IMG/VR virus record: IMGVR_UViG_3300045988_113289
Location: 1-13,719 of that record
Strand: one strand, 5' to 3'
From: a virus
DNA: 13,719 nt
Part shown: in pieces, positions 60 through 12,950 of the stretch
Position numbering within the stretch: position 1 is the stretch's first letter
Layout of the letters: each line of letters begins with the position of its first letter
The notes under the pieces: generated by a model
The model's database searches: none
What the model saw: the letters and a program-made list of their open reading frames with translations, nothing else
Told to the model about the DNA's origin: nothing
Translations under genes and position numbers: made by a program

Positions 60-281
60 ATGAAGACCGCTTATTTCGAACGCCGTGCCATTAACCAGCT
101 GAACCATGACAGCATCTACGACACTGCCAGTTATCGTTACTTTATGGAGGAAGATGCTGTGTACCGCCTTAATCGTGATTACCTTGGCACAACTGTCGCC
201 TTGTCCCACAAAAGCGACAGCAACCCTAACGGCTGGGAACTGGTCGAAATCCGTGTGAAGGGGATGAAGAAGAATGTCTGA
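60..281 (+). CDS. Hypothetical small protein (73 aa), first gene of the left arm
   Basis: ORF starts 4 nt after the ITR. The weak SD AAGGGAAA lies inside the ITR. 8-nt ATGTCTGA overlap with the next gene. No recognisable motif. Confidence 0.6.
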   Translation: MKTAYFERRAINQLNHDSIYDTASYRYFMEEDAVYRLNRDYLGTTVALSHKSDSNPNGWELVEIRVKGMKKNV

Positions 282-477
282 TTTCCGGTTTGTGGCTGTA
301 CAGTATCTCCGTGCTCAAACGCTAACCCAAATAACAGATTTAACTCGTAGAAGCTACAAGGGTTACACCGCAGAGGAGCGTGAAGCCCTGAAGCTCATTG
401 CCCGTGTTGTCGCCCGCGAATTGCTTGAAAAGCGAAAGGCTGAACGTTTGAATGAAGCAAGTAAAGCTAACACGTGA
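274..477 (+). CDS. Hypothetical small helical, basic protein (67 aa)
   Basis: ATG at 274 overlaps the upstream stop (ATGTCTGA). GGGGA lies upstream. Predicted helical, Arg/Lys/Glu-rich C-terminus. Confidence 0.55.
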   Translation: MSDFRFVAVQYLRAQTLTQITDLTRRSYKGYTAEEREALKLIARVVARELLEKRKAERLNEASKANT

Positions 478-649
478 ACAGATTAACGACTTGAATACTA
501 AGGGCTACACCTTTACAAGCTATTACTATTACTGGACAGTTTGGGAGGATACAAATATAGTAAACCGCATAACCCGTGCGGAATTTATGGCACGTTCAAT
601 TGCCGAACCGCTCCATGGGGTGGAGCAAGTACGAATTTATGAGAGGTGA
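452..649 (+). CDS. Hypothetical small protein (65 aa) with a YYYYW aromatic run
   Basis: ORF in the same orientation as the operon. Weak SD (AAAGG, 12 nt upstream). 26-nt overlap with the preceding gene. Confidence 0.45.
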   Translation: MKQVKLTREQINDLNTKGYTFTSYYYYWTVWEDTNIVNRITRAEFMARSIAEPLHGVEQVRIYER

Positions 650-653
650 TTAC

Positions 654-872
654 ATGGAGATTAGGGCATTAATTTTGTGGGAAGATGGCGTATTTACACT
701 TAATGATATGAGCGGCGAAGGCGGGATTAATGAGGCGGAACAACTTTGCCGCGCCCTCATTAGTCACGAAGGAGATGACCCGCGTTATGTAGCAAAAGAA
801 ATACAGCTTTTTACAGTAAATGGTCGTGTGATAAAAAGAGTGTATAATGGGAGGAAATCAGATGAACGCTAA
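654..872 (+). CDS. Hypothetical small protein (72 aa)
   Basis: GAGAGGTGA SD lies 4 nt upstream of ATG 654. The longer 576 start overlaps the previous gene and has no SD. Confidence 0.6.
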   Translation: MEIRALILWEDGVFTLNDMSGEGGINEAEQLCRALISHEGDDPRYVAKEIQLFTVNGRVIKRVYNGRKSDER

Positions 873-1107
873 TTACATCCTTGTTCGTCTCGATTCTGAC
901 GGAAACGAACTGCTTGCAAAAGCAGGCGGCAAAACCCGCTTCCAGTTTTTCAGCCGGACGACGGCGGTTAAGGCTATGGAGATGGCAATCGAGTGTAACC
1001 CCGATGTACATTACACAAAATTGTATCGTAGACACCGGGCGGGCGGTTATCGTTGGGTGGCATCCCGTTTCCGGGATGGTTCGCACTTATCCACATGGGG
1101 TGAATAA
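862..1107 (+). CDS. Hypothetical small basic protein (81 aa)
   Basis: GGGAGG SD lies 7 nt upstream of ATG 862 and is preferred over ATG 847. The stop is followed immediately by the terminator hairpin. Confidence 0.6.
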   Translation: MNANYILVRLDSDGNELLAKAGGKTRFQFFSRTTAVKAMEMAIECNPDVHYTKLYRRHRAGGYRWVASRFRDGSHLSTWGE

Positions 1108-1108
1108 G

Positions 1109-1145
1109 AATAAGAGGAGGGCACTGCCCTCCTCTTATTTTATAC
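1109..1145. terminator. Bidirectional rho-independent terminator between the convergent left-arm and late operons
   Basis: Perfect stem AAGAGGAGGGC (1112-1122) / GCCCTCCTCTT (1126-1136), extendable to 1109-1139, with a 3-nt loop. Flanked by ATTTTAT on + and TATTCTTATT on -. It sits between stop 1107 (+) and stop 1140 (-). Confidence 0.85.
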
Positions 1146-2594
1146 ACCAACAGCAATCCAGTCTACCGCGAACTGCTCGTGTGTGGATGTCCCAGATAGC
1201 CGGATTTTTGCAGAACTTGTTGTTTTTGCAAAAATCAGCTGTGAACGTGTTACGCTGTCCGCTGTTGCGCCCGTGTTGGAAAAGGTTGCTACCACCGTGG
1301 GAATCTCTGTAAATCCTGCGGCAGTATAATCAATCACGCTGTCTTGGTCTTGGTATGCCAGCACGTTGCCCCTTGCAATTTTTGGCATATTCTGGAATTT
1401 AGAAATAGCAGTTTCCAAATCAGATAGCCGGGAATTTATAGGGGCTTTATCGGTGGGGTACTCTGAGGTGCCATTGATAGCAGTCCGATTATTACAGCTC
1501 CAATTATAGGCCGGATTGATTCTGAGTGCCATTGGCACATTTTCTGACCAAATGCCGATAGTATCCCACAATGTATTATATTTCGATTCTGCCGGTCTCG
1601 TGCCGATTTTTTCCAGTGCGGAAGAAGCAGTAGAAGCAGCCGTTGTCGCGGTTGACTTGGCAATAGCGGCATTATTGTCTGCCGTTTCCGCCTTGGTATA
1701 TGCATCTTGCACTTCCGCCTCTACGTTAGCCAATTCTGTTGCAAGCTGTCCAGTTTTTTCATCCACATAGGAGGTGGTTGCGTACTGTTCCCCGCCGCTA
1801 TTTCCCGCCACAAATACAAATGTACGAACTCTTACGCGCATATAGTCAGCGGTTGTTGCATCCTTACAATTAGCTTCCAACACATAATTGTTGTACTTTG
1901 CGCCCACCTTTGTAATTAGCGGAGAACACAGAAGAATAATGTTGTCAGAATTTCCAATATCTGTTGAAACTGCCGTTTCTCGTTCCGCAATAGCAAAGTC
2001 AAATTCTGGAACTGTTGACGCGGGCTTGAATCGTGTTCCGCGCGCTGTGCCTTTAGGAATCGCAATAAAGCCTGTGCTGTTTTGCTTTACAAGGCTTCCC
2101 GGTTTCAGCGCGTCCTCAATCGTGTTAAGACGTGCTTGAATTGTTCCCTTAGTAATATCATACACACCATTAGTTCCAGCGATAGAACGTCGATTTTCTT
2201 TTTCCTCCGTCTGCACTTGGAGCAATTTGCCGCCGATTGCCTGAGTTGCGGAATAATCTCCGATAGCACTCCAAACGCTGGTGAAATTAGGCACATTCTG
2301 TTTCACGCCTATGTTCTTTTCAGCCTCAAACATTCTTCCATTAAGACCGCTGATGCTTGTCGTGTGCGCTGTAATTTGGTTTTGCAGTTCTTGGTCAGCG
2401 GTTGTTCGCGCTGAGCGTTCGCCAGAAATTTTTTCGTCAAGTAGTGCATCTTGTTCGTCCACATATTTTTTACTAACGCTTCCGCTCTGTTCCAGCGCGT
2501 CCACTCTGCCATCAAGTTCTTTAATGGACTTATACGCCCAGTCCAGATTTTCCTCATGGAAATTTGTAAACGGGAATTGTTCCCAAATGCCCAT
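1140..2594 (-). CDS. Tail fibre / receptor-binding appendage (484 aa) with coiled-coil segments and two repeated modules
   Basis: Last gene of the structural operon. AGGAGGTG SD lies 6 nt upstream of the ATG. Has an Ala/Thr/Ser/Glu-rich heptad-like stretch. The C-terminal beta-rich domain ends in WIAVG, an H-type-lectin-like pattern. The internal duplication is described in findings. Confidence 0.6.
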   Translation of the reverse strand: MGIWEQFPFTNFHEENLDWAYKSIKELDGRVDALEQSGSVSKKYVDEQDALLDEKISGERSARTTADQELQNQITAHTTSISGLNGRMFEAEKNIGVKQNVPNFTSVWSAIGDYSATQAIGGKLLQVQTEEKENRRSIAGTNGVYDITKGTIQARLNTIEDALKPGSLVKQNSTGFIAIPKGTARGTRFKPASTVPEFDFAIAERETAVSTDIGNSDNIILLCSPLITKVGAKYNNYVLEANCKDATTADYMRVRVRTFVFVAGNSGGEQYATTSYVDEKTGQLATELANVEAEVQDAYTKAETADNNAAIAKSTATTAASTASSALEKIGTRPAESKYNTLWDTIGIWSENVPMALRINPAYNWSCNNRTAINGTSEYPTDKAPINSRLSDLETAISKFQNMPKIARGNVLAYQDQDSVIDYTAAGFTEIPTVVATFSNTGATADSVTRSQLIFAKTTSSAKIRLSGTSTHEQFAVDWIAVGV

Positions 2595-2609
2595 ATTTTA
2601 CACCTCCTA

Positions 2610-3203
2610 TTAGTACACCCAAATTAGAAAACGCCGCTGGAAATCCCTTACAACTGTATCATAGAAATTGAACATTGCTACACGTCGTTCGCTTTCCAAC
2701 ATTTCCTGCGTGGTAGTCACGCCGATGTTACCATGTGCGCGGCCTTTTCGGGTTCCGGCGCTTGTGCCTGTTCCGGCACTGTCGCTTGTGTCCACGCCGG
2801 TGCTGGTGCTGGTGCTTGCGTTATTGTCAGATGGTGTTTGTAAATCGTTGTAACCATATACTTGTTCTTTTGTTGTGCCGCTGGAAGTGTTATTAGCAGA
2901 ATTTGTATAGTGGGATGTGTTTGTGCTATTATCCTCCCATTCTTCCGTTCTGTCATAATTTTCTATCGGATTGTATTCAGCCGCCAGCGTTTCTGACAAA
3001 TGTTTCCATGTATACTGTGACACGTTGCTCCATGTGGAAATAAGCGATTTAATTAGAGGCGGCGACGAATACAGCACAGGCATTTCCCCGCATTGCATCA
3101 GCAGAGTGTTTACAAAATCTTGCACCGATAGATTAGCGGGAAATTCTACGCCCTCGAAAATGGAGGGGTCGAAATTATACATTGTCGCCAGCTTCACGCT
3201 CAA
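2610..3203 (-). CDS. Putative lower collar / head-tail adaptor protein (phi29 gp11 position), about 197 aa
   Basis: Lies directly after the portal gene. Contains the YNPIENYDR...HGNIGVTTTQEM pattern and an Asn/Ser/Thr-rich middle. Start chosen as TTG 3203, 5 nt after GGAGGTGA. ATG 3182 (ATGTATAA overlap with the portal stop) is an alternative. GTG 3251 has no SD. Confidence 0.5.
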   Translation of the reverse strand: MSVKLATMYNFDPSIFEGVEFPANLSVQDFVNTLLMQCGEMPVLYSSPPLIKSLISTWSNVSQYTWKHLSETLAAEYNPIENYDRTEEWEDNSTNTSHYTNSANNTSSGTTKEQVYGYNDLQTPSDNNASTSTSTGVDTSDSAGTGTSAGTRKGRAHGNIGVTTTQEMLESERRVAMFNFYDTVVRDFQRRFLIWVY

Positions 3204-4101
3204 TTTTGTCACCTCCGTTCGTGTCATGGTCAATCGGGTAGCGGCGCTCACAAGTGATTGTGATACCGTATGCGGACTTTACCTGTTTGATACAATCCTG
3301 TATCGTATCATACCATTGTGCAACAATGCTATCTGTTTCTACGTCATTCCGTTCTGCTTCTGCCGTAATCAACCGTTCTTTTTTGTCAACGTTACAAGAG
3401 GGGATACCGACACGAGTGTCAAATTCTGCTTCAATTTGCCTCATGTTGGAAAGAATACGGTCTGCGATATAGTTTTGTCCTACGTTTTGCGCAAACGGCG
3501 CCCATGTAGGCGTCCCGTCGTCGCGGAATAAATCCTTATCAACCCACACCGCAAGTTCGCCAGATGTTACCCTATCCATTAGTGCCTTGCCTGTTTGAGC
3601 GGCATTTTTTGAACCACACGCAAACACATAGGATAATTTAGAATTCATTATGTTCATTGCAAGAGATTCGACCGACGTAGCTAACAAGTCCGCATAGTAA
3701 TTCACAAGGTCAAGTGCCCCATGATAATCACGCTGAAGTCGGAAAAGCACACAATCTTTGCCAATCTCCAGATTCATAGGCGGCAAAAGTGGGTTCTCGA
3801 CCATTACGGTTGTCGGCTGATAAAATACATTGTATCCATACAGCGCGCCGGCTTGTGGAATCACGCCGAATTTCCGGCTGTTGAAAATAGCCACACTTCC
3901 CCAGCCGTACAAGCAACCGAGAAAATAAGTATCACTCCAATCTTCCGGAAATTTCCACTTGAATTGACTTGTAAGTTTCTGGAATAAGTACCGCTGGTAG
4001 TACTGGAAAAGTGCTGTATTTTTTGTGTGGCAAGTAGAGGGGGAAATACTCGATTCGTATGCGTTCACATAATTGTAGTCAAAAGGGGGATTATTAGCCA
4101 T
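3175..4101 (-). CDS. Portal / upper collar connector protein (phi29 gp10-like), 308 aa
   Basis: NVDKKERLITAEAERNDVETDS closely parallels phi29 gp10 [22 protein letters not shown]. The size (308 aa) matches gp10 (309 aa). GAAGGTGA SD lies 5 nt before ATG 4101. 8-nt ATGGCTAA overlap with the upstream stop. Confidence 0.88.
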   Translation of the reverse strand: MANNPPFDYNYVNAYESSISPSTCHTKNTALFQYYQRYLFQKLTSQFKWKFPEDWSDTYFLGCLYGWGSVAIFNSRKFGVIPQAGALYGYNVFYQPTTVMVENPLLPPMNLEIGKDCVLFRLQRDYHGALDLVNYYADLLATSVESLAMNIMNSKLSYVFACGSKNAAQTGKALMDRVTSGELAVWVDKDLFRDDGTPTWAPFAQNVGQNYIADRILSNMRQIEAEFDTRVGIPSCNVDKKERLITAEAERNDVETDSIVAQWYDTIQDCIKQVKSAYGITITCERRYPIDHDTNGGDKIEREAGDNV

Positions 4102-5608
4102 CAGATTCACCTTCTTCAATAAAAAATCCATTTGACAGGTACGAAGTTAATGCAGCGATTTCCGGTTGTGTCGCAAGAACGGTATCAATATCGGGGCGCA
4201 TAACAGTAGTAAATCCTGATAGGGTAGATAGCTTTAATTTTTTACAGCATGGAGTTCCTAAATCCTCATTGTCAGCCGAAACAATATTTGCAAACTGATA
4301 GCAAAGCGCTGGAGTTGCTCTATAATCAGCTATGCCGCCATTCTGCCCCTTAACAGATAATTCCGCGTTTGCCGCTAACGCCGCTGAACCGACATTGGAA
4401 AAATCTCCTGTTGCAACGCCTTGAATCAGCCCTGTTAGAGCGCCCTGCGCCGTTGGGGATGAAAGTAGTGCGGAAGAAGCTCCTAATGCCGCGCCTACTT
4501 TACCGCCAGTCATTGCCCCCTGTGTAATCGAGCCGACAATGTTTTGGACATCTGACAGAATCGACTTTGCCACGGTTTGCTGTGCCAACTGTATATCAAC
4601 GCCAATATTACAATCAGCAGAATATATAAGTGGCGCACCACTTCCTTGCCCGTTTATTTGTAGGTGACCGATTCCAGATATACAGTCAATCCTAACAAAC
4701 ACGTCAAGTTTGCGGTTTGCAGTGAATTTTGATGGGTCGATGGGGATTACTCCAAATGGAGGAAACAAAAAATAAAAATTTGAATATGGCCTGAAATCGA
4801 GCCATTTTCCGCGTGCAATTTGCGGATGCGTAGGAATATCAATTGTGAATTGTTTTACAATAACTGCAGAGGATGCAAGTTTTGATGCGCTTCCACCTGT
4901 GAAATCCCAACCAGAAACGGAAATTGTGTGGACTTCTCCCGCAGTCGGCGGTTTTTCAGGAAACCATTTACATGAAACGATATATTGAAAAGGGTTTATG
5001 ATGGCTCTCGAAAGCTCCTGTGAAATTTCTGTAGCGCTTATTCCCATGTATGCATAATCTGTCATCAGCGCAGAACGTAATCCCGCGAACTGGGCGTTTG
5101 ACATGACATAATAAGATACACATCCTACTGTGTCAGTAGCTTTATTTATAATCCCCAAAACATAATAGCCTGTTGACAGAGAATCAAAACTCCATCCAGT
5201 CGCAAGGGAATATCCGTGTGAAATATTTGATGTTACTGGATATAGAGGATCGACTATTGACAAGTCCCCTGCACTTGCGGAACGCAGTATATATTGCTCT
5301 GTTTCCTTTAGCGTCGCCCAATAGGAAGCCAGAACGTCACACGCCAGCGTGTACACCACACGGTTTTGAACAAAAGTAATATCAGTGACGAAATAATATC
5401 TGTGAAAATAAGGAATGTAGGCGTAATTATAAGAAGAGGGCGAAAGAAGCCCGTTCGGGAAAATGAGCGTAATTTGGGGGGCAATTGCGCTGGTGCTTTC
5501 TTTAAGTACGCAATCAGTAAAAAATGATAATTGTCCTTCCGCATCTTTTTGAGTAGGAGTTTTAGTCGAATTTATCCGTTTACGGAAAGCATAAAACCGA
5601 ACCTGCAT
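4094..5608 (-). CDS. Tail knob / distal tube protein (phi29 gp9-like), 504 aa
   Basis: N-terminal pattern NYAYIPYFHRYYFVTDITFVQNRVVYTLACDVLASYW resembles gp9 ...KWFYAFVTELEFKN..FEIDVLQTW. Lies upstream of the portal as in phi29. GGAGGTGA SD lies 4 nt before ATG 5608. The Gly/Ala-rich segment lies at about 70-84% of the protein length. Confidence 0.65.
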   Translation of the reverse strand: MQVRFYAFRKRINSTKTPTQKDAEGQLSFFTDCVLKESTSAIAPQITLIFPNGLLSPSSYNYAYIPYFHRYYFVTDITFVQNRVVYTLACDVLASYWATLKETEQYILRSASAGDLSIVDPLYPVTSNISHGYSLATGWSFDSLSTGYYVLGIINKATDTVGCVSYYVMSNAQFAGLRSALMTDYAYMGISATEISQELSRAIINPFQYIVSCKWFPEKPPTAGEVHTISVSGWDFTGGSASKLASSAVIVKQFTIDIPTHPQIARGKWLDFRPYSNFYFLFPPFGVIPIDPSKFTANRKLDVFVRIDCISGIGHLQINGQGSGAPLIYSADCNIGVDIQLAQQTVAKSILSDVQNIVGSITQGAMTGGKVGAALGASSALLSSPTAQGALTGLIQGVATGDFSNVGSAALAANAELSVKGQNGGIADYRATPALCYQFANIVSADNEDLGTPCCKKLKLSTLSGFTTVMRPDIDTVLATQPEIAALTSYLSNGFFIEEGESDG

Positions 5609-6371: not shown

Positions 6372-7547
6372 TTAGTCCATCAGAATAACGACGCCCTTTT
6401 CCGTAAAGTCAATGGCGTGCCGCTCATTGTACTTCCAGAAAATATTGTAATATTCCCCCTTGGCATTCGGGGGCGTGACACGCTGTCGCGTCAAAATCGG
6501 GCTATATCCGAATGCGTCACGGTCACAAATAATGCCAAGAACATTCCCCTGATTTACATCATCCGTAGCCGTTGTAATGGTTCCATCCGCCGCAAGGTAT
6601 TGTGGCTTTACAACATTGATTTTCTGCGGGTCAGTCATAATCTGCCAGTAATTGACATATTCAACGTCACCTGCCAACTTCAGGAAATTGTCATGATATG
6701 TGTCCGCAAGCGCCATCATATCAGTCTGGTGCATAAACATAGAATTAAGATAAACACGCTGTTCCTGCTTCGGGGTGTGCTGTAGGAAAACACCATCAGA
6801 GGTGTTCGTCTGATAAAGACTGGAATATTCTGTCAACATATCGGACAAGTTAGCAAGGCGCGAAAACGCCCACTGGGTAAACGCCTTATAGTTTGCCGGT
6901 TGCATTACGGTAGTAGCAGTAAGTTTCAACCCGGTCGCGGCATTGTACTCCGTCAGCAGATGGATAACATCGGTTTTCTGTGCAATCTTGCCAGCGGCAA
7001 ACCCCGCGACAGTTGCACGTGCAGTTTCTTCGTGCGTCTTCTCGATTTTGTTATTCATGTTTGTCAAAATCATAGAAATAAACGCGCCGAAATCTTCCGC
7101 CGACCTGAAAGCCGTGTTCAACTGCGTTTCAAAAATAGTTTTTTCGTACTCGTACGCCTGCTGCCCGTAGAAGTTAAACTGCGCAACCTTAGGTTTGCGA
7201 ATCGTGTACTGGTCAACACTCTGCCCGTCTGCCAAGTCGCAATACGGGTTGTCGGTCAGGTCGTCCGGGTCGTCGATTGTCTTAATTTTCCGCACCCAGT
7301 TTCCCCACTGGTCGCCGGGAATACGCATCCCCTCAAACTTTGCTTTATAGGGCCGGCTGGAAAAAATTGTTCTCGAAAGAAGCTGAGAAATCGCGCTCAT
7401 AACAGGGTCAGCGCCAGTTTTGAGCGCCTTCTGACCGAGCGTCAAAAGTTGCTTCGTGTCGAGCGCGGCAGTGTCCTGCCCTGTCGCATCCTTTAGCACT
7501 GCTTTTAGCAGAGTGCTAATCTTATCAATTGTCAGCGTGTTAGCCAT
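6372..7547 (-). CDS. Major capsid protein (phi29 gp8-like HK97 fold, no BIG2 domain), 391 aa
   Basis: [23 protein letters not shown] parallels gp8 [37 protein letters not shown] parallels RNPRGLYWNYYYHVW. GGAGGTG SD present. Follows the scaffold-like gene with an 8-nt ATGGCTAA overlap. Confidence 0.85.
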   Translation of the reverse strand: [391 protein letters not shown]

Positions 7548-7953: not shown

Positions 7954-8438
7954 TGTTTGTTACCTCCATATTTATTTACCAATGCTACAAGGTCGCTATA
8001 CAGGTCGTTACAACTATTTTCTTTTGTCTCCACATCCGCGGCATAATCGAGGCAATTTGATTTTGCGTGATGTGTCCAACGCTTACTGGTAATTTTATCC
8101 AACTGCACCCCGCCCGTGGTAGAATGCATAACCTCCCCATTGCCGATGTAGATGCCGACGTGTGCAGCGTTTACACCATCGGTGTAACGCTTAGGCTCTT
8201 TGCCATCATTTTTGATGGTAAATACCCATTCGCCAGCTTCGATGCTTCCAAAATCTGCCAACTTATCATGCACAGCGTTGCGCCACATGTCATTTGAGCC
8301 GCGCCAGTTTTTGGAAATTCCTGCGTATTTTTTCAGGCAAAATTCGACAAATGCTTGACAATCGAGTGTTGTATAAGGGATGCCGATTAGAGTATTACGG
8401 TCTGCGCTGATTTTTTCTGCCCATTTCTCAGCAATCAA
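7950..8438 (-). CDS. NlpC/P60-family cell-wall endopeptidase (probable endolysin), 162 aa
   Basis: Catalytic-Cys motif TLDCQAFVE and His motif AHVGIYIGNGEVMHS. Directly follows the holin. Only a TTG start (8438, GGTGA 6 nt upstream) precedes the catalytic Cys, and it overlaps the holin stop. No obvious wall-binding domain. Confidence 0.8.
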   Translation of the reverse strand: MIAEKWAEKISADRNTLIGIPYTTLDCQAFVEFCLKKYAGISKNWRGSNDMWRNAVHDKLADFGSIEAGEWVFTIKNDGKEPKRYTDGVNAAHVGIYIGNGEVMHSTTGGVQLDKITSKRWTHHAKSNCLDYAADVETKENSCNDLYSDLVALVNKYGGNKQ

Positions 8439-8629
8439 TTAGCGTCACCATCCATTTTATCAATCAATTTTTGGATAACAAGCGTGTTGTTGTTCAGCGC
8501 ATCCTTCAGCTCTTTTGTTTCTGATGCGTGCTGTTCCCGCTCCTTGTTAAGATACGAAAACAATACAAATGTACAAGCAATGGGGAAACCGACAGTAGTT
8601 ACAAGTTGCGTGATTGCCGTTACATCCAC
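8435..8629 (-). CDS. BhlA/UviB-type holin (64 aa)
   Basis: GTG 8629 lies 7 nt after GGGAGG. The product is VDVTAITQLVTTVGFPIACTFVLFSYLNKEREQH..., an N-terminal TM helix plus a C-terminal charged coiled coil. Length and architecture fit the BhlA/UviB family. The upstream 47 codons of the tracked ORF start at a TTG that is the -35 box and have no SD. Confidence 0.7.
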   Translation of the reverse strand: MDVTAITQLVTTVGFPIACTFVLFSYLNKEREQHASETKELKDALNNNTLVIQKLIDKMDGDAN

Positions 8630-8650
8630 AAAATAACCTCCCGTCTCCCG

Positions 8651-8735
8651 GAAAACAAAATGGCAATAGGGGTCGCGGCATCCGACTATGCCCTGCTCAC
8701 CCTTCCGGGGTTGTCGTTTGAGCCTCCCTACTGCC
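8651..8735 (-). ncRNA. Structured leader or small RNA: 74-nt three-way-junction fold closed by a 10-bp helix and followed by a U-tract
   Basis: On the - strand, GGCAGUAGGG (8735-8726) pairs with CCCUAUUGCC (8671-8662), with one G.U pair. Internal helices are GCUC/GAGC (8723-8720 / 8698-8695), CCC-GGAA-GGG (8709-8700), and GGCAU/AUGCC (8692-8688 / 8681-8677) or the alternative GUCG/CGAC. AUUUUGUUUUC follows (8661-8651). The fold starts at the predicted TSS of the adjacent promoter. Confidence 0.5.
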
Positions 8736-8741
8736 ACAATC

Positions 8742-8770
8742 AATGTACCATAATTTTTTAATTTTGTCAA
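8742..8770 (-). promoter_or_regulatory. Near-consensus sigma-A/sigma-70 promoter with extended -10 (candidate late promoter)
   Basis: On the - strand: TTGACA (8770-8765), a 17-nt spacer, then TGg-TACATT (8750-8742). It starts 3 nt after the ATPase stop codon. My by-eye scan for TTGACA found this to be the only one with a properly spaced -10 hexamer. Confidence 0.7.
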
Positions 8771-8773
8771 GGC

Positions 8774-9793
8774 TTATTTAACTATTCCGAAATATTGACA
8801 GAAAACAATTTCACACGCGGGCGATTCACAATAGATTCTGCGCTCAATATATTCCAGCATTAGATAGCGATAAAGCGTGCGGAAACGCAAACAATCATTT
8901 TCCGTTGTACTGTATATCGGACGTGTTCCCTGCCCGTGCGGACTTATATAAAATGTGTGGTTGCTCTTGTGCCTGTAAACGGTAATTTCACCACAAGTTA
9001 CTACAGGCGTGTACTCTTTTAGGTTCGCGCTCATAGTCTGCAATACAGGTTTATCCAAAAATCTGTTTTCCAGCGACATATCTTTTATCTTGTTATCTTT
9101 GAGCAATCTATAAAGCGCGGTTTCGCCCTTCTTTTGGCTGATAGGGCTATTGCGCAAGTTTATAAGATACAATCCGCGTTCACCATCTTTATATTCCTGC
9201 GTAGCATTCTCTGCCATCTTATAAGCAATCGTGATAAGCCCTAAACTTTGGAAAATCGGGTTTACAATGCTATTGCTATTAGCAAGGCACAGGCATTTAA
9301 CAGGTGGTTTACCGTCTAATTCCCGGTTGCGATTTATAGTTTCGTACGCATTAAAAAATGCATCACCCTCATTTTTTATTCTTCGCTCATGTGATTCGGG
9401 GATAAATTCATCAAATATAATAATTTCTATATTATGAGCTGAAAAACCGCGAATGTTTGACACGCCTGACAGCGCCATGATATACCCGGCAGGGTTGCTT
9501 TCCTCATTGATATATATGGCAGTCGCTTCTTTAGAAACTTTATCCATTTCAAAAGGCACATTTATATCTTCGAACACTGGAGCAAACGGTGACATTTCTG
9601 GCACGCTGATAACATCTGCTTGCAGTTTTGTCCGCCTCATATAGATAAATTTCATTTTGTGTTCAATGACATATTTAAGGGCGCCGTACGTCTTTCCTGT
9701 ACCGCGGGCACCCGTCATCAGTATAAATGGATATTTTTGCTCTATGATTCGTGTCATATCAACATAGCCATTTTCCAAAAATAGGTTATTCAT
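8774..9793 (-). CDS. DNA packaging (encapsidation) ATPase, phi29 gp16-like, 339 aa
   Basis: Walker A LMTGARGTGKTY (gp16 VIGARGIGKSY), FIYMRRTK (FIYVRRYK), Walker B IIIFDEFI (IVFDEFI), CLCLANSNSIVNPIF (CICLSNAVSVVNPYF), MSLENRF (MSLDNQF). AGGAGGG SD lies 4 nt before ATG 9793. The 24-codon upstream extension runs through the terminator hairpin. Confidence 0.92.
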   Translation of the reverse strand: MNNLFLENGYVDMTRIIEQKYPFILMTGARGTGKTYGALKYVIEHKMKFIYMRRTKLQADVISVPEMSPFAPVFEDINVPFEMDKVSKEATAIYINEESNPAGYIMALSGVSNIRGFSAHNIEIIIFDEFIPESHERRIKNEGDAFFNAYETINRNRELDGKPPVKCLCLANSNSIVNPIFQSLGLITIAYKMAENATQEYKDGERGLYLINLRNSPISQKKGETALYRLLKDNKIKDMSLENRFLDKPVLQTMSANLKEYTPVVTCGEITVYRHKSNHTFYISPHGQGTRPIYSTTENDCLRFRTLYRYLMLEYIERRIYCESPACEIVFCQYFGIVK

Positions 9794-9803
9794 ACGCCCT
9801 CCT

Positions 9804-9838
9804 AAAAATAAAAGGCAGGGGTATTCGCCCTGCCTTTT
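9804..9838 (-). terminator. Rho-independent terminator ending the replication (early) operon
   Basis: On the - strand: AAAAGGCAGGG - CGAATAC - CCCTGCCTTTT (11-bp stem, 9838-9810) followed by ATTTTT (9809-9804). It lies between the SSB-like stop (9844) and the ATPase SD. There is no T-run on the + strand, so it is unidirectional. Confidence 0.85.
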
Positions 9839-9843
9839 ATGCG

Positions 9844-10194
9844 TCAATCGAAAATCAATTCGCAAGACGTATAGTTGCGGTTATTCTTACTCCGAATCTG
9901 GGTAACCTGAAGGTTAAAACCCACATCGTCCATGCCCGCCTGACACAGATAATCGACAATGGCAAGAAGACGTTCACTGAACGCCCTGCCGTTAGTGATG
10001 TAAGGCTCCCCCTCAACAATAATTCCGCAACGTGGCTTATACTCACCGTTGCTGTCAACCGTTTCGGAAACCCCCCACGCATCAACGCGAACAGTCTTTC
10101 CCATCAACTCCGACATGGTGTGCCCGTCGCGGGAAAGCGTCAGCTTGTACAGTTCCGCGGGTGAAATGCTCTGATTAGTCTTAGTGTTACTCAT
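9844..10194 (-). CDS. Putative ssDNA-binding protein (phage SSB-like OB fold), 116 aa
   Basis: AGGAGG SD lies 7 nt before the ATG and the gene sits immediately downstream of polB. The pattern GKTVRVDAWGV..DSNGE....IIVEGEPYITNG......SKNNRNYTSCELI recalls lactococcal-phage-type SSBs. Assigned by pattern and position only. Confidence 0.4.
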   Translation of the reverse strand: MSNTKTNQSISPAELYKLTLSRDGHTMSELMGKTVRVDAWGVSETVDSNGEYKPRCGIIVEGEPYITNGRAFSERLLAIVDYLCQAGMDDVGFNLQVTQIRSKNNRNYTSCELIFD

Positions 10195-10221: not shown

Positions 10222-12246
10222 TTATCGCCTAATAAGATTATAGCACAGACTACGGTCTGCGTCAATGCTTATATAAGTGTCTTGTAGTGCATCCAGTAAG
10301 TTAGCGTATTTGTAAGTAATTCCCACTGCATACGTTGATGGCCGTAGGCATACGTTTCGGGTTATGATGAGTTCGTGCCCCTCAACATTGATTTTCTTGT
10401 ATACATGGTCGTTGTAAACGCTTTCAAGCCCTCCCGCTTTTCGGAATACAAAACCGGGCGCGAATTTCACAAGTCCGCCGGCGTCTTCCAGCTCATCGGC
10501 TCCTCCCCACTCCACAATGTCGCCGGCGGCGTTTTTGGTGGATTTTTTACGCACGCCTGCAATTGTTATATCTATATGCCCCTGAGCATCCTGTGAAGCA
10601 TATTTTTTCGCGCCCCATGTTAAAAACTGATAATATTCGCCCTCCGTCTCCGCAACGCCCATGTAATGCGTTATACCGTGCTTGTCTACGGCATATGCGC
10701 CATGCTCAATAGATGCCGTTTTGCATCTATTATTATAGGATTCATAACTGATTGATTCTGATTTTATAAATTTACAGCTATCAGTGTCGGCGTAAACGAA
10801 ATTATTCCCTACAATCTTTATCATTTCTTCCAGCTCCTGCCGTGCGTACGCGGTAACCCACACGCCCCACTGATAGGGGAGAAATGACTTTTTGATATTT
10901 TTGATTACGTCTGTTTCCTGCTGAATATATTCACCCGAATCAGCATCAAATATAATATCATCTTTTCCGGGGTCTGTGGCTGTCATACCATAAAGACTAT
11001 TTAACAGATTTTTGCTTTTCATGTATTCATATTCGCTTCCTTCGATACCTTTAAGCGCTGTTTTGTTTTTGTAGTAGCGCTTTATACAGTCGGTAAAAGG
11101 TTCCGGCAAATAGTCCTTCTGTGCCGTGTAAATGTCTGTAAAATCAAAAGCACCGTCATACTCTTCAAGAATTATCTGCATATCTACATCCGTTACTTCA
11201 ATCGTCAGTGCATCCGCCTCAAGTACACGCCCGTTGTCTTCAAGCGGATTTATCAACATTTGACATTTACTAACAGGGATATATGGGCATCCCCATAACG
11301 GATTACGCAGGGTTGCACCTTTTATCGTCATCGTGCAAAGGATTGCAAGCCCGGAAAGTAAAGCCCGCCGAACAGTTACGATTCCGTCAGGGCATTTTTT
11401 GAATGGCTTCATCGGGAACTTTTTGTTGACCATTACGTCGGGATAGCTGGAGGAGCGGTCGACCGATTGAACCCCAGACAATACCTTTCCCGCAAAATAT
11501 CTATTTGCGTGCGTATTGCCGCCACGAAATGCCATGCGTAATTTTTTGTAAATTTCTTCAGTGGGTTTAAGCGCCCCCAGCGGTGTTTGACTTAACGCCT
11601 GTTTCGCGTCACGCCGCACATACCCTGTGGAGGTTCGCGGAACTGTATATAGCGTGTCGCCATCTTGCGCAATCTTCTTCACTGCCGCTTCCAACAACCC
11701 GATAACGTCATTTTGGCAGTATTCAATCTCTGCTTCCGTTAGTGCCGTCCAAGGATAACGGGTTTTGGTATAGTCAAATTCAGCGCCCGACTTCTTCAAG
11801 TGGCTGACATTCATTTCCTGCAAAAATTTTGAAAGCGTCTTATTTGTCCAAATGTACGAACAGCGGTATTCGATGCAACCACATGTCGCTGACAAGATTT
11901 TTCGGGATTTAAGGCACTTTACGTCTGAGAATTCATAAAGCCCTGCGAGAAATTGAAATTCATACGAAAGATTGTGAACAAGGCATATTATTGTAATTCC
12001 GCCCAGCCTTGCGTTTAACGCATCCTGCAAAGCAGTCCATTCTTCCCACGTTCTGCCGTATGTGATATAGTAATCGTCATCCACATACAGCCCGCACTGC
12101 CAGATATACATTACAGAGTTGTCATCGTCAAGGCGCGTTGTCTCTATGTCAAACGCCATCAGCGCATTAGCGTATACGATTTTTGCCCGTGGATTATCAG
12201 GCGTTAATGCCGTTATTTTTTGGATTCCATCATATACGCTATTCAT
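10222..12246 (-). CDS. Protein-primed family-B DNA polymerase (phi29 gp2-like), 674 aa
   Basis: Exo I FDIETT, Exo II HNLSYE, Exo III YCQNDV, AFRGGNT (phi29 AYRGGFT), motif A VDRSSSYPDVM, motif B KNLLNSLYGM, motif C VYADTDSC, KxY GAKKYA. Confidence 0.95.
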   Translation of the reverse strand: MNSVYDGIQKITALTPDNPRAKIVYANALMAFDIETTRLDDDNSVMYIWQCGLYVDDDYYITYGRTWEEWTALQDALNARLGGITIICLVHNLSYEFQFLAGLYEFSDVKCLKSRKILSATCGCIEYRCSYIWTNKTLSKFLQEMNVSHLKKSGAEFDYTKTRYPWTALTEAEIEYCQNDVIGLLEAAVKKIAQDGDTLYTVPRTSTGYVRRDAKQALSQTPLGALKPTEEIYKKLRMAFRGGNTHANRYFAGKVLSGVQSVDRSSSYPDVMVNKKFPMKPFKKCPDGIVTVRRALLSGLAILCTMTIKGATLRNPLWGCPYIPVSKCQMLINPLEDNGRVLEADALTIEVTDVDMQIILEEYDGAFDFTDIYTAQKDYLPEPFTDCIKRYYKNKTALKGIEGSEYEYMKSKNLLNSLYGMTATDPGKDDIIFDADSGEYIQQETDVIKNIKKSFLPYQWGVWVTAYARQELEEMIKIVGNNFVYADTDSCKFIKSESISYESYNNRCKTASIEHGAYAVDKHGITHYMGVAETEGEYYQFLTWGAKKYASQDAQGHIDITIAGVRKKSTKNAAGDIVEWGGADELEDAGGLVKFAPGFVFRKAGGLESVYNDHVYKKINVEGHELIITRNVCLRPSTYAVGITYKYANLLDALQDTYISIDADRSLCYNLIRR

Positions 12247-12248
12247 TG

Positions 12249-12950
12249 CTAAATCTTCCCTTCCCTTTTGGCTTTTTCAAAAATGGCGCGTACGGTTGCA
12301 CCATTTACAAATTCGCCCGCTTTCAGACGCTGTTTATAGCGCGCACGCGCCTTGTCCGCCTGTCTCTCCCAGTAGTCCCACCGTTTCATGAGGTCTTCCC
12401 AGTCAGATTTTGCAAATTTACGTTTAACGCTTGTCGTCCCCTCCTGAGATATATCAATAATATCTTGCAGGATGTAATAATATTGTGCCTCTTTATTCGC
12501 ATCAGCATAAACCGCGAAAAATTTGCGAAACTGCAAGAAGTCTTCGTATGTAAAGTTTTCTTCCGTGAACCACCCTCGTTGTAAAAGTGTTTTGTACTCC
12601 ATCTTCCATTGATTTTGTTGTGCGAAAAACAATTGTTGTGGAGTCTTCGTGCCGGATACCACCTTCCACATGGAGCGAATCTGCCGGACGCCCTCCTCCA
12701 CTGTGCGGACAGTGGAGGGTTTATCCCAGTAGTGGCGCTCATACTGTTTAATGCTTTCGTATTCGATTCCCTTTTTCTTCGCCGCCTTAAAACGCTTGTC
12801 CATTAGGTCAATAAGCGCTTTCATTTCTTTGCGAACTGCTTTAAGCGTTAGCCCTTCTTTTGGGATTTTTGTACCCGCATACACGGATGCGGGAAGCGGG
12901 CGATTTTCAAGCGCCGTGCTTTGCGCGAATCGTTTATTCCACCTTGCCAT
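12249..12950 (-). CDS. Candidate terminal protein (233 aa)
   Basis: Lies immediately upstream of polB with a 2-nt gap, as phi29 gene 3 lies upstream of gene 2. Basic, helical and similar in size to known TPs (230-270 aa). AAGGGGGA SD present. The genome has ITRs and a protein-primed polB. No direct sequence match recognised. Confidence 0.5.
   Translation of the reverse strand: MARWNKRFAQSTALENRPLPASVYAGTKIPKEGLTLKAVRKEMKALIDLMDKRFKAAKKKGIEYESIKQYERHYWDKPSTVRTVEEGVRQIRSMWKVVSGTKTPQQLFFAQQNQWKMEYKTLLQRGWFTEENFTYEDFLQFRKFFAVYADANKEAQYYYILQDIIDISQEGTTSVKRKFAKSDWEDLMKRWDYWERQADKARARYKQRLKAGEFVNGATVRAIFEKAKREGKI

What the first reader, a model, noticed from the sequence alone, without database searches (positions are those of the whole stretch)
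8630..8773. Consensus promoter firing straight into a multi-branched RNA plus U-tract that gates the whole late operon, directly 3' of the packaging ATPase gene
Seen in sequence: the 144 nt between the ATPase stop (8774) and the SD-supported holin GTG (8629) has no SD-preceded start.
- It carries TTGACA-17 nt-TGgTACATT on the - strand.
- The predicted TSS (about 8735) is the first base of a 10-bp helix (8735-8726 / 8671-8662).
- That helix closes a 54-nt interior holding two or three hairpins, including a GNRA-type GGAA loop.
- There are two mutually exclusive pairings: GGCAU/AUGCC versus GUCG/CGAC. GGCAUAG 8692-8686 can also replace GGCAGUAG as partner of the 3' arm.
- AUUUUGUUUUC follows.
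- Three GGGAG motifs (one is the holin SD) and two CCCC motifs allow further alternative pairings.

I found no other promoter between the U-tract and gene 1140-2594. About 7.5 kb of lysis and morphogenesis genes therefore have to be transcribed through this element.

Inference, two non-exclusive readings:
1. A constitutive promoter plus immediate terminator that needs a phage antiterminator or RNA switch. This is analogous to lambda PR'-6S RNA-tR' with Q, or to HK022 put RNA. It would be a different late-switch logic from the p4-activated A3 promoter of phi29.
2. A discrete RNA of about 85 nt. A 5'/3'-paired helix plus a three-way junction beside a gp16-type ATPase gene recalls phi29 pRNA, which I know only from Bacillus phi29-like phages.

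By eye it did not match any riboswitch consensus I could recall (purine, c-di-GMP-I, ykkC, ZTP, fluoride, glnA).
Basis: partly seen in the sequence, partly recalled or inferred. Interest (0 to 1): 0.8.

Follow-up and report, generated by a model that had tools for sequence, protein, structure and literature searches.

The report
Miniature pRNA-like RNA in gut phage
Between the DNA-packaging ATPase gene and the late genes of this small phi29-like gut phage lies a gene for a roughly 75-nucleotide folded RNA that is conserved in many related phages; it has the same architecture as the packaging RNA (pRNA) of phage phi29 at about two-thirds the size, so RNA-containing packaging motors may be common outside Bacillus phages.

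Summary
On the - strand, a near-consensus promoter (TTGACA, 17 nt, TGgTACATT) starts transcription at about 8735. That is the first base of a 10-bp helix that closes a three-way junction (8662-8735).

A covariance model finds exactly one copy per related phage locus (84 hits in 414 kb):
- 24 of 26 base pairs show compensatory changes.
- A 5' bulge and a hairpin loop keep 4-6 complementary bases in 60 of 68 distinct sequences, using 25 different sequences.
- One hairpin carries a near-invariant CGGAA pentaloop.

The order of elements, the bulge geometry and the loop sizes match phi29 pRNA. Neither the Rfam pRNA model nor any other Rfam family matches. Larger RNAs of the same topology occur in cultured Clostridium, Eggerthella and Streptococcus phi29-like phages.

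Best reading (confidence about 0.6): a miniature pRNA-type RNA of the packaging motor.

The U-tract is confined to some clades. In one clade where gene order is broken, the RNA stays with the head of the late operon rather than with the ATPase gene. A cis-acting leader role therefore remains a serious rival.

Verdict: new variant of a known kind, with high interest.

The parts
8765..8770 (-). -35 hexamer TTGACA
   Evidence: Read and listed. An equivalent promoter scoring at least 9 of 12 is present in 76 of 81 distinct related contexts.
8742..8750 (-). Extended -10, TGgTACATT. The predicted transcription start is about 8735 (8735-8737).
   Evidence: In relatives the -10 ends 3-11 nt (mode 6) before the first paired base of the closing helix.
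8726..8735 (-). A helix, 5' arm (GGCAGUAGGG)
   Evidence: Fold. In the model alignment the A helix is 95% paired and all 8 scored pairs show compensatory changes.
8720..8723 (-). C helix, 5' arm (GCUC). It pairs with 8695-8698 (GAGC).
   Evidence: All 5 pairs of this helix show compensatory changes.
8711..8719 (-). 5' bulge AAACGACAA, equivalent to the phi29 CE (right-hand) loop. CGAC at 8716-8713 is complementary to GUCG at 8686-8683.
   Evidence: In relatives the bulge is complementary to the D loop over at least 4 contiguous Watson-Crick pairs in 60 of 68 distinct sequences. Non-cognate bulge/loop combinations reach this in 10.7%.
8700..8710 (-). E hairpin: stem CCC/GGG (8708-8710 with 8700-8702; A8711-U8699 may add a fourth pair) and pentaloop CGGAA (8707-8703).
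   Evidence: The stem is 100% paired and all 4 pairs covary. The C(G>A)GAA loop is near-invariant while the stem sequence varies freely.
8677..8692 (-). D hairpin: stem GGCAU/AUGCC and loop AGUCGG (8687-8682), equivalent to the phi29 D (left-hand) loop.
   Evidence: The model alignment is one column out of register for this clade, so the 76% paired figure for this helix is an underestimate.
8672..8676 (-). Junction strand between the D and A helices (GCGAC here; AAGAA-like in most relatives).
   Evidence: Alignment A3.
8662..8671 (-). A helix, 3' arm (CCCUAUUGCC)
8652..8660 (-). U-rich tract UUUUGUUUU. It probably acts as a leaky intrinsic terminator in this clade.
   Evidence: 7 T in the 9 nt after the extended helix here. 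Only 21 of 81 related contexts have 6 or more.
8648..8653 (-). UUCCGG box, complementary to the E loop plus its closing C (CCGGAA). Role unknown.
   Evidence: A complement of at least 5 nt is present in 27 of 80 contexts, against 1.8% of shuffled downstream sequences.
8774..9865 (-). gp16-type packaging ATPase gene, directly upstream.
   Evidence: Pfam Podovirus_Gp16 E=1e-21; phrog_2150; 29% identity to phi29 gp16.
8435..8629 (-). Holin-like first late gene (GTG 8629), directly downstream.
   Evidence: phrog_4898 holin E=3.8e-5.

Best explanation
The region encodes a small structured RNA of about 74 nt (8662-8735, - strand). It is transcribed by host RNA polymerase from its own strong promoter, so that its first base pairs with its 3' end.

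The fold, in order:
- a closing helix (A);
- one arm made of a short helix (C), a 7-9-nt bulge on the 5' side only, and a hairpin (E) with a CGGAA pentaloop;
- a second hairpin (D) whose loop is complementary to the bulge.

This is the architecture of phi29 prohead RNA in miniature. I propose that it does the same job. Bulge and D loop would pair between molecules to form a ring on the connector of the empty prohead. The closing helix and the E loop would hold the gp16-type ATPase and the shell, and the RNA would leave after packaging.

In this clade the closing helix plus U-tract would end most transcripts. That gives many copies of the small RNA, while read-through supplies the late mRNA.

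Shown here: the promoter, the fold, its conservation and covariation, the bulge/loop complementarity, and the phi29-type phage context.

Inferred: that the pairing is intermolecular, that the RNA binds the motor, and that it ends at the U-tract.
For: Phage context:
- The window encodes Pfam Podovirus_Gp16, Phi29_MCP, Phage_connector (GP10) and a protein-primed-type polymerase (DNA_pol_B_2).

The RNA is real and conserved:
- Model R1 finds one copy per locus, always on the transcribed strand (84 hits in 414 kb; window 53.5 bits, E=5.6e-11).
- 85.9% of cells are paired against 53.1% in shuffles. 24 of 26 pairs show compensatory change. The covariation score is 0.779, against 0.174 in shuffles and at most 0.156 in slid controls.
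- Bulge and D loop share at least 4 contiguous Watson-Crick pairs in 60 of 68 distinct sequences (at least 5 in 42 of 68). Non-cognate pairs reach this in 10.7% (1.9% for 5). 25 different sequences are used.

Fine-scale match to phi29 pRNA (secondary structure from my knowledge; sequence and position confirmed):
- The bulge is on the 5' side only, with the pairing bases next to the E helix.
- The E stem is 4 bp.
- The D loop is 6-7 nt.

It looks like a separate gene:
- The promoter is placed so that transcription starts at the helix in 76 of 81 contexts.

RNAs of intermediate size, with the same topology, in other phi29-like phages:
- Eggerthella phage LE1-1 class: about 103 nt, long bulged A helix, own terminator hairpin, directly upstream of the ATPase gene. 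The pairing bases change from GGGC/GCCC to GUGCA/UGCAC between subgroups.
- Clostridium phage CI461P1 class: about 105 nt, between the polymerase and ATPase genes, with compensatory stem changes.
- Streptococcus phage Cp-1: 4687-4802(-), with a 6-bp complementarity.

Specificity of the topology:
- A topology descriptor returns only the known pRNA in phi29 and only this element in the window.
Against: - No sequence-level membership: Rfam RF00044 scores 145 bits on phi29 but finds nothing here even at E up to 10.
- The A helix is short (8-15 bp) and continuous. It lacks the bulges that, to my knowledge, phi29 needs for ATPase binding.
- The junction strands are distributed differently: 0-1 / 1-2 / 5 nt here, against 1 / 3 / 0 in phi29.
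- The window's connector lacks a basic N-terminus of the phi29 kind (MDFLLKKVNL... against MARKRSNTYRS...).
- In the MT835998 clade the RNA stays with the promoter and the first late gene, not with the ATPase gene.
- Most relatives lack a clear terminator, and the next start codon follows 27-33 nt later. Many copies would therefore be made as the 5' end of a long mRNA.
- The UUCCGG box suggests the E loop can pair with that leader.
- Covariation cannot tell intramolecular from intermolecular pairing. The matched lengths of the C and D helices (about 5 bp each) would allow an intramolecular kiss.
Confidence: 0.6

Rival explanations
1. A cis-acting 5' leader of the late operon. The folded RNA stays attached to the late mRNA and controls it. 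The CGGAA hairpin would be bound by an early phage protein or would pair with the UUCCGG box. That would set termination at the closing helix, make the polymerase terminator-resistant (as with lambda N/boxB or HK022 put), or open the ribosome-binding site of the first late gene. The bulge/loop pairing would then be an intramolecular pseudoknot that builds a compact fold.
For: - When gene order is broken (MT835998), the RNA stays with the promoter and the holin-first late operon.
- In Clostridium phage CI461P1 it again sits at the boundary between early and late genes.
- The next start codon lies a tight 27-33 nt after the helix.
- The UUCCGG box complementary to the E loop is enriched (27 of 80 against 1.8%). 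There are hints of matching changes: loop CAGAA with box UCUG in L018, and UCGGAA with UUCCGA in L067.
- In the window, UUUUCCG can also pair with the Shine-Dalgarno sequence GGGAGG (hairpin 8656-8636).
- The window clade has a terminator-like U-tract.
Against: - The U-tract is present in only 21 of 81 contexts, and the box is absent in about half of the lineages.
- The downstream gene differs between lineages: holin, a scaffold-like protein, ATPase, or a small ORF.
- In the LE1-1 class the RNA carries its own terminator hairpin and lies late in the late region, not at its head.
- In Cp-1 the equivalent fold lies on the strand opposite to both flanking operons.
- There is no excess of internal terminators that would call for antitermination (17 found, 14.1 +/- 4.6 expected).
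- put and nut sites have no closing helix or kissing loops (my knowledge).
Confidence: 0.25
2. A trans-acting phage RNA with another job. Examples would be a decoy or inhibitor aimed at a host protein or defence system, or an RNA that binds another phage protein through the CGGAA loop, unrelated to packaging.
For: - It has its own strong promoter and a compact conserved fold with an exposed near-invariant loop.
- No known RNA family matches.
Against: - Nothing points to a specific target.
- The element order and loop geometry match pRNA in detail.
- Its occurrence tracks phages with gp16-type ATPase and gp10-type connector in every class examined.
- Accessory anti-host RNAs are usually patchy. 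This RNA was found by model R1 or by eye in 92 of the 93 distinct loci examined, including the MT835998 clade represented by that whole genome.
Confidence: 0.1
3. A riboswitch-type aptamer: a three-way junction with loop-loop docking, as in purine riboswitches, sensing a metabolite to control the late genes.
For: - About 70 nt, with a closing helix, two arms and a tertiary loop contact.
- The closing helix doubles as a terminator stem in the window clade.
Against: - No Rfam hit at E up to 10.
- The junction strands are short and poorly conserved. The conserved bases are in a hairpin loop, not in the junction core.
- No conserved expression platform.
- The element is not found outside phi29-like phages in the loci examined.
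Confidence: 0.03

Closest known systems
phi29 prohead/packaging RNA (pRNA; Rfam RF00044 Phage_pRNA)
   Same: - Encoded by a phi29-type phage with a gp16-type ATPase, gp10-type connector and protein-primed polymerase.
- Transcription starts at the first base of a helix formed by the 5' and 3' ends.
- Three-way junction.
- One arm with a bulge on the 5' side only, followed by a 4-bp hairpin.
- A second hairpin with a 6-7-nt loop.
- 4-6 bases of the bulge, next to the E helix, are complementary to the hairpin loop and covary with it.
- One copy per genome.
   Different: - 62-85 nt instead of 117-174 nt.
- No detectable sequence or covariance-model similarity.
- C helix of 5 bp instead of 9-10 bp.
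- A helix of 8-15 bp without bulges.
- Junction strands of 0-1 / 1-2 / 5 nt instead of 1 / 3 / 0.
- A near-invariant CGGAA pentaloop in the E hairpin.
- The gene sits at the boundary between the early and late operons and reads into the late genes, rather than at the left genome end.
- Function is untested.
Larger pRNA-like RNAs found here in Eggerthella phage LE1-1, Clostridium phage CI461P1 and Streptococcus phage Cp-1. A 'packaging RNA' is also annotated in the Actinomyces phage Av-1 GenBank record, and I recall a pRNA prediction for Cp-1 by Martin et al. 1996 (paper not held).
   Same: - Same topology and bulge/loop complementarity.
- A promoter fires into the closing helix in LE1-1 (-35 and -10) and, with a -10 only, in CI461P1. 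No promoter was looked for in Cp-1.
- Non-Bacillus phi29-like phages.
   Different: - They are about 100-115 nt, with long bulged A helices and 10-11-bp C helices, so closer in size to phi29 pRNA.
- Different E loops.
- Different genomic positions.
- None has been tested experimentally, as far as the held literature shows.
HK022 put RNA and lambda nut/boxB (cis-acting antitermination RNAs)
   Same: - A short structured RNA made directly from a strong promoter at the head of a long operon.
- The E hairpin, a short stem with a purine-rich pentaloop, resembles boxB in form.
   Different: - put is two adjacent stem-loops, and nut is boxA plus a single hairpin. Neither has a closing helix, a three-way junction or kissing loops (my knowledge).
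- No evidence here of terminators that need to be overridden.
Purine-riboswitch-type three-way-junction aptamers
   Same: About 70 nt, with a closing P1-like helix and two arms that touch through their loops.
   Different: - No conserved junction core.
- No conserved expression platform.
- No Rfam match.
- The contact is a 4-6-bp Watson-Crick helix between a bulge and a loop.

Membership tests
phi29-type pRNA | Encoded by a phage with a gp16-type packaging ATPase and a gp10-type connector | tested here: met
   Pfam Podovirus_Gp16 (E=1e-21), Phage_connector (E=2.9e-16) and Phi29_MCP.
phi29-type pRNA | Match to the curated covariance model (Rfam RF00044) | tested here: not met
   No hit at the gathering threshold in the whole window, nor at E up to 10 in 8560-8860. 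The same library scores phi29 at 145 bits.
phi29-type pRNA | Helix formed by the 5' and 3' ends, closing a three-way junction with a C-bulge-E arm and a D hairpin, in that order | tested here: met
   Fold. 24 of 26 pairs show compensatory change across 68 distinct sequences.
phi29-type pRNA | Right-hand (CE bulge) and left-hand (D loop) sequences are complementary and covary | tested here: met
   At least 4 Watson-Crick pairs in 60 of 68 cognate pairs against 10.7% of non-cognate pairs. 25 distinct pairing sequences.
phi29-type pRNA | The loop pairing is intermolecular and builds an oligomeric ring | not testable with these tools
   Covariation is the same for intramolecular and intermolecular pairing. 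This needs native gels, trans-complementation of loop mutants, or cryo-EM.
phi29-type pRNA | Long A helix with bulges that dock the ATPase | tested here: not met
   In this class the A helix is 8-15 continuous base pairs. The LE1-1 and CI461P1 classes do have long bulged A helices.
phi29-type pRNA | Binds proheads and is required for DNA packaging; absent from mature virions | not testable with these tools
   Experimental only.
phi29-type pRNA | Made as a discrete small RNA from its own promoter | tested here: inconclusive
   - The promoter is conserved in 76 of 81 contexts.
- A terminator-like U-tract is present in only 21 of 81.
- A separate terminator hairpin follows the RNA in the L032 clade and in the LE1-1 class.
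Intrinsic terminator / attenuator gating the late operon | G+C-rich stem followed directly by a U-tract, conserved among relatives | tested here: not met
   Met in the window clade (6-8 T in 9 nt) but not as a family feature.
Riboswitch | Conserved ligand-binding core, an expression platform, and a match to a known class | tested here: not met
   No Rfam match. Conservation lies in a hairpin loop rather than the junction. No conserved platform.
put/nut-type antitermination RNA | Acts in cis on RNA polymerase to read through downstream terminators | tested here: inconclusive
   Its position at the operon head fits. No excess of terminators in the late operon. The architecture differs. The function needs in vitro transcription.

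The most novel reading that the evidence does not exclude
A minimal pRNA of 62-85 nt serves the packaging motors of a large group of gut phi29-like phages. It is made as the 5' end of the late transcript. Copies that terminate or are cut off would form the ring on the prohead. In read-through copies the CGGAA loop would pair with the UUCCGG box in the leader. One RNA would then couple the supply of motor RNA to late gene expression. If so, an RNA component would be an ancestral and general feature of phi29-type motors rather than a Bacillus-phage oddity, and the essential core of a pRNA would be defined by nature at about half the size used in RNA nanotechnology.
Probability: 0.2. Interest if true: 0.95.

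Novelty: new variant of a known kind. Interest (0 to 1): 0.85.

Why it matters
Reviews held here state that pRNA is unique to phi29 and related Bacillus phages (PMC11476376, 2024; PMC5066667, 2016). A 2025 covariance-model survey added only Bacillus and Cytobacillus phages (PMC12670572).

How gp16-type ATPases dock on the portal in other phi29-like phages is therefore an open question.

This window leads to a conserved RNA family with pRNA topology:
- The ATPase scan of IMG/VR matched at least 583 relatives.
- The RNA was confirmed in the roughly 90 related loci examined.
- RNAs of intermediate size occur in cultured Clostridium, Eggerthella, Amedibacillus and Streptococcus phages.

That makes the question directly testable in culturable systems. 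It also offers a natural series from about 62 to 120 nt for working out which parts of pRNA are essential, and gives new self-assembling three-way-junction scaffolds.

Even if the RNA turns out to be a late-operon control element, it would be an undescribed, widespread structured RNA class in gut phages.

Tried and rejected
- **tRNA or tmRNA.** The 7-bp end helix plus a discriminator-like A looked tRNA-like. ARAGORN finds nothing.
- **Any Rfam family**, including pRNA, riboswitches and small ribozymes. No hits at the gathering threshold or at E up to 10.
- **Coding region.** The mechanical 111-aa ORF from TTG 8770 begins in the -35 hexamer and has no Shine-Dalgarno sequence. Relatives differ by compensatory base changes and by length changes that break the frame.
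The downstream partner varies among the closest relatives, while the upstream bulge partner is conserved and covaries across clades.
- **Model R1 on cultured phage genomes** (AD70P3, CI461P1, LE1-1, phi29). It was too narrow and found nothing convincing. Their RNAs were found by eye, by folding, and partly by a topology descriptor.
- **The topology descriptor.** It recovers the window, LE1-1, phi29 and Cp-1 RNAs but misses MT835998, AD70P3 and CI461P1. Its negative results for Actinomyces, Enterococcus, Bifidobacterium, Microbacterium and Curtobacterium phages therefore mean little.
- **RNAalifold on the MAFFT alignment of the LE1-1 class.** It chose the kissing pairing over the nested helices, because MAFFT put the two subgroups out of structural register. 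Single-sequence folds were used instead.
- **Basic N-terminus of the connector as a marker of RNA binding.** Present in phi29 and CI461P1, weak in LE1-1, absent in the window. It is not usable as support.
- **The Cp-1 genome paper (PMC190243).** It could not be read.
Full report
**What the window is**

The 13.7-kb window is close to a complete genome of a small phi29-type phage. Almost all genes are on the - strand.
- A 233-aa ORF with no family match (12249-12950), in the position where the AD70P3 and CI461P1 records also have an unnamed gene just upstream of the polymerase and phi29 has its terminal protein gene.
- Protein-primed-type DNA polymerase (10222-12246, Pfam DNA_pol_B_2).
- A 116-aa ORF.
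- gp16-type packaging ATPase (8774-9865, Pfam Podovirus_Gp16, E=1e-21).
- A holin-like gene (GTG 8629), then a protein matching tail proteins with lysin activity.
- Phi29_MCP capsid protein (6372-7547) and a tail lysozyme.
- gp10-type connector (3175-4131).

The nearest database records are unannotated human-gut phage contigs. The cultured relatives are Amedibacillus phages AD70P2 and AD70P3 (the AD70P3 record is classed in Guelinviridae).

**Checking the observation**

- TTGACA 8770-8765, 17 nt, TGgTACATT 8750-8742.
- A 10-bp helix 8735-8726 / 8671-8662 that closes a multibranch interior.
- AUUUUGUUUUC at 8661-8651.

Taken alone, the fold is only modestly better than shuffled sequence (z = -1.76). 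The single sequence is therefore not proof. There is no tRNA. No Rfam family matches, either at the gathering threshold or at E up to 10.

**Comparative evidence that the RNA is real**

Thirteen close relatives (ATPase 90-96% identical) keep both the promoter and the RNA almost unchanged. Variation is concentrated in the junction strands.

Distant relatives (ATPase 32-47% identical) have a different sequence with the same plan at the same place.

A covariance model built from 59 sequences (R1) was searched over the window and 94 loci, 414 kb on both strands.
- It gave 84 hits, exactly one per locus, all on the transcribed strand.
- The window scored 53.5 bits, E=5.6e-11.

On the resulting alignment (68 distinct rows):
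- 85.9% of cells are standard pairs, against 53.1% in shuffles.
- 24 of 26 pairs show changes on both sides.
- The covariation score is 0.779, against 0.174 in shuffles and at most 0.156 when partners are slid by 1-3 columns.
- The E stem is paired in every sequence, and all four of its pairs covary.
- G-U pairs occur in the orientation expected only for the transcribed strand.

**Anatomy (window coordinates, - strand)**
- A helix: 8735-8726 with 8671-8662.
- C helix: 8723-8720 with 8698-8695.
- Bulge on the 5' side only: 8719-8711.
- E hairpin: stem 8710-8708 / 8702-8700, loop CGGAA 8707-8703.
- D hairpin: stem 8692-8688 / 8681-8677, loop AGUCGG 8687-8682.
- Five-nucleotide strand 8676-8672 leading back to the A helix.

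Two features stand out across the family.

First, the loop C(G>A)GAA is almost invariant, while its stem is free to change.

Second, the last 4-6 bases of the bulge, next to the E helix, are complementary to the D loop. In the window this is CGAC 8716-8713 with GUCG 8686-8683. A register-free test gave:
- at least 4 contiguous Watson-Crick pairs in 60 of 68 cognate bulge/loop pairs, and at least 5 in 42 of 68;
- the same in only 10.7% and 1.9% of non-cognate combinations;
- 25 different pairing sequences.

The partner of GUCG is the upstream bulge, not the downstream CGAC, which varies even among the closest relatives.

**Comparison with phi29 pRNA**

The pRNA secondary structure is from my own knowledge. 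Its position and sequence in phi29 were confirmed.

Both RNAs read, 5' to 3': A, C, bulge, E hairpin, C', D hairpin, A'.

| Feature | phi29 pRNA | This RNA |
|---|---|---|
| Bulge | 9 nt on the 5' side, 0 nt opposite | 7-9 nt on the 5' side, 0 nt opposite |
| Pairing bases | AACC, abutting the E helix, pair with GGUU in the D loop | 4-6 nt abutting the E helix pair with the D loop |
| E hairpin | 4 bp, 6-nt loop | 4 bp, 5-nt loop |
| D hairpin | 5 bp, 7-nt loop | 4-5 bp, 6-7-nt loop |
| C helix | 9-10 bp | 5 bp |
| A helix | about 25 bp with bulges | 8-15 bp, continuous |
| Junction strands (A-C / C-D / D-A) | 1 / 3 / 0 nt | 0-1 / 1-2 / 5 nt |
| Sequence or model similarity | RF00044 scores 145 bits | none detected |

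A topology descriptor run on locally stable folds returns only the known pRNA in the phi29 genome. It returns only 8660-8737(-) in the window. Shuffled windows give 0.22 loci each.

To my knowledge, the same kind of covariation in the phi29 family was first read as an intramolecular pseudoknot. Trans-complementation later showed it to be intermolecular. The covariation found here cannot decide that point either.

**RNAs of intermediate size in other phi29-like phages**

*Eggerthella phage LE1-1 and 34 IMG/VR relatives.*
- A promoter fires into a 103-nt RNA with a long bulged A helix, a 10-bp C helix, a 5-nt bulge, an E hairpin and a D hairpin.
- A second hairpin follows. In one subgroup it carries a U-run, so it is an intrinsic terminator.
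- The whole unit lies just upstream of the ATPase gene, with or without an inserted small ORF.
- Between subgroups the C and E stems are replaced by different sequences. The pairing bases change from GGGC/GCCC to GUGCA/UGCAC.

*Clostridium phage CI461P1 and 13 IMG/VR relatives.*
- A 105-nt RNA of the same topology lies between the polymerase and ATPase genes.
- Stem changes are compensatory (CAG/CUG to CGG/CCG; GCA/UGC to GCG/CGC).
- ACCA/UGGU complementarity is kept, and a U-tract follows.

*Streptococcus phage Cp-1.*
- It folds cleanly (z = -3.2) into the same plan at 4687-4802(-), with a 6-bp complementarity UGGUUA/UAACCA.

*Precedent.*
- The GenBank record of Actinomyces phage Av-1 annotates a 'packaging RNA'.
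- I recall that the 1996 Cp-1 genome paper predicted a pRNA. I could not read that paper.
- The idea of pRNA outside Bacillus phages therefore has scattered precedent.
- Reviews and a 2025 survey held here still describe pRNA as confined to phi29 and related Bacillus or Cytobacillus phages.
- None of them describes the family found here.

**Evidence that cuts the other way**

*Gene order.* In MT835998 and its clade the ATPase gene lies on the other strand and is followed by a plain terminator. The RNA (48.9 bits) lies 8.3 kb away, behind its own TTGACA promoter and directly in front of the holin-like first gene of the late operon. When gene order breaks, the RNA stays with the start of the late operon. 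It does not stay with the ATPase gene.

*Terminator.* The U-tract is not a family feature. Only 21 of 81 contexts have at least 6 T in the 9 nt after the helix. The next start codon usually follows 27-33 nt later. In many lineages the RNA must therefore be made, at least in part, as the 5' end of the late mRNA.

*UUCCGG box.* A UCCGG or UUCCGG box lies 6-12 nt after the helix (window 8653-8648).
- It is complementary to the E loop plus its closing C.
- It is strongly enriched: a complement of at least 5 nt in 27 of 80 contexts, against 1.8% of shuffled controls.
- There are a few possible matching changes in loop and box.
- It is absent in about half of the lineages. In one clade it lies beyond a separate terminator.
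- Its meaning is unexplained.

*Connector.* The window's connector lacks the basic N-terminus that phi29 and CI461P1 have.

**Weighing the explanations**

Arguments for a pRNA-type motor RNA:
- The detailed match of architecture.
- The restriction to phages with gp16-type ATPase and gp10-type connector.
- One copy per genome wherever whole genomes were searched, and detection in 92 of the 93 distinct loci examined.
- A promoter placed so that the RNA begins at the helix.
- Related classes in which the RNA is clearly its own gene: its own terminator in the LE1-1 class, and the opposite strand in Cp-1.
- A series of sizes running from about 62 to 120 nt.

Arguments for a cis-acting leader:
- The MT835998 arrangement.
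- The missing terminators.
- The UUCCGG box.

Arguments against a cis-acting leader:
- The downstream gene differs between lineages.
- There is no excess of internal terminators to override.
- Known antitermination RNAs are built differently.

My estimates are about 0.6 for a pRNA-type function, 0.25 for a cis regulatory leader, 0.1 for another trans-acting role and 0.03 for a riboswitch. The remainder is left open. The first two explanations are not exclusive.

The pRNA-like reading is supported in structure. The 'terminator that gates the late operon and needs an antiterminator' reading holds at most for this clade.

**Novelty**

This is a new variant of a known kind. It is a structured RNA family of phi29-like gut phages that is not in Rfam and not described in the literature held here. 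It has pRNA topology at roughly half to two-thirds of the size.

Whether it is a member of the pRNA family by descent remains open.
- The curated Rfam model does not match it.
- The feature that defines pRNA function (ring formation and motor binding) could not be tested here.

Noticed in passing
window 8648-8653 (- strand): A UUCCGG box lies 6-12 nt after the closing helix and is complementary to the near-invariant E loop plus its closing C (CCGGAA). It is present with at least 5 nt of complementarity in 27 of 80 related contexts, against 1.8% of shuffled controls, and absent in about half of the lineages. In the L032 clade it lies after a separate terminator, next to the Shine-Dalgarno sequence. 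Meaning unknown.
   Followed up: partly
window 8636-8656 (- strand): A weak hairpin can form in which UUUUCCG pairs with the holin Shine-Dalgarno sequence GGGAGG. It could compete with E-loop/box pairing and affect holin translation.
   Followed up: no
window 10237-10265 (- strand): This is the best promoter match in the window: TTGACG, 17 nt, TATAAT with a TG extension (11 of 12). It lies inside the 3' end of the polymerase gene, just upstream of the 116-aa ORF and the ATPase gene. It is a possible separate start for the ATPase transcript.
   Followed up: no
window 60-1107 (+ strand) and 1112-1136: A block of small + strand ORFs converges on the end of the - strand late operon. A bidirectional terminator-like hairpin (AGGAGGGCAGTGCCCTCCT) lies between them. 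None of the four + strand ORFs searched (60-281, 274-477, 576-872, 847-1107) has a PHROG match.
   Followed up: no
L101 (MT835998.1) 1051-1119 (+): This clade has a rearranged genome, with the ATPase and replication genes on one strand and the late genes on the other. The RNA sits at the head of the late operon, 8.3 kb from the ATPase gene.
   Followed up: yes
L015 (MT837693.1) about 2585-2700 (+): A variant of the RNA in which the CGGAA hairpin is replaced by a 33-nt two-hairpin insert. The bulge/D-loop complementarity (UGUGC/GCACA) is kept. The E arm is therefore the replaceable part.
   Followed up: partly
L104 (Eggerthella phage LE1-1) 12538-12641 (+); L103 (Clostridium phage CI461P1) about 9905-10010 (-): Larger (100-105 nt) RNAs of pRNA topology in cultured non-Bacillus phages. 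They show compensatory changes among IMG/VR relatives. Neither is annotated in its record.
   Followed up: partly
L159 (Streptococcus phage Cp-1) 4687-4802 (-): A clean pRNA-like fold with a 6-bp bulge/loop complementarity (UGGUUA/UAACCA). It lies in the early/late intergenic region, on the strand opposite to the mapped late promoters. It is not annotated in the record.
   Followed up: partly
L154 (Actinomyces phage Av-1) 16295-16402 (+): The GenBank record annotates a 'packaging RNA' that overlaps ORFs on the other strand. It did not fold into the pRNA topology in my hands.
   Followed up: no
window 3175-4131 (- strand): The gp10-type connector has no basic N-terminal segment (MDFLLKKVNLMANN...). 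This differs from phi29 (MARKRSNTYRS...) and CI461P1 (MSSKRRKIKA...). If the RNA binds the connector, it must do so differently.
   Followed up: partly
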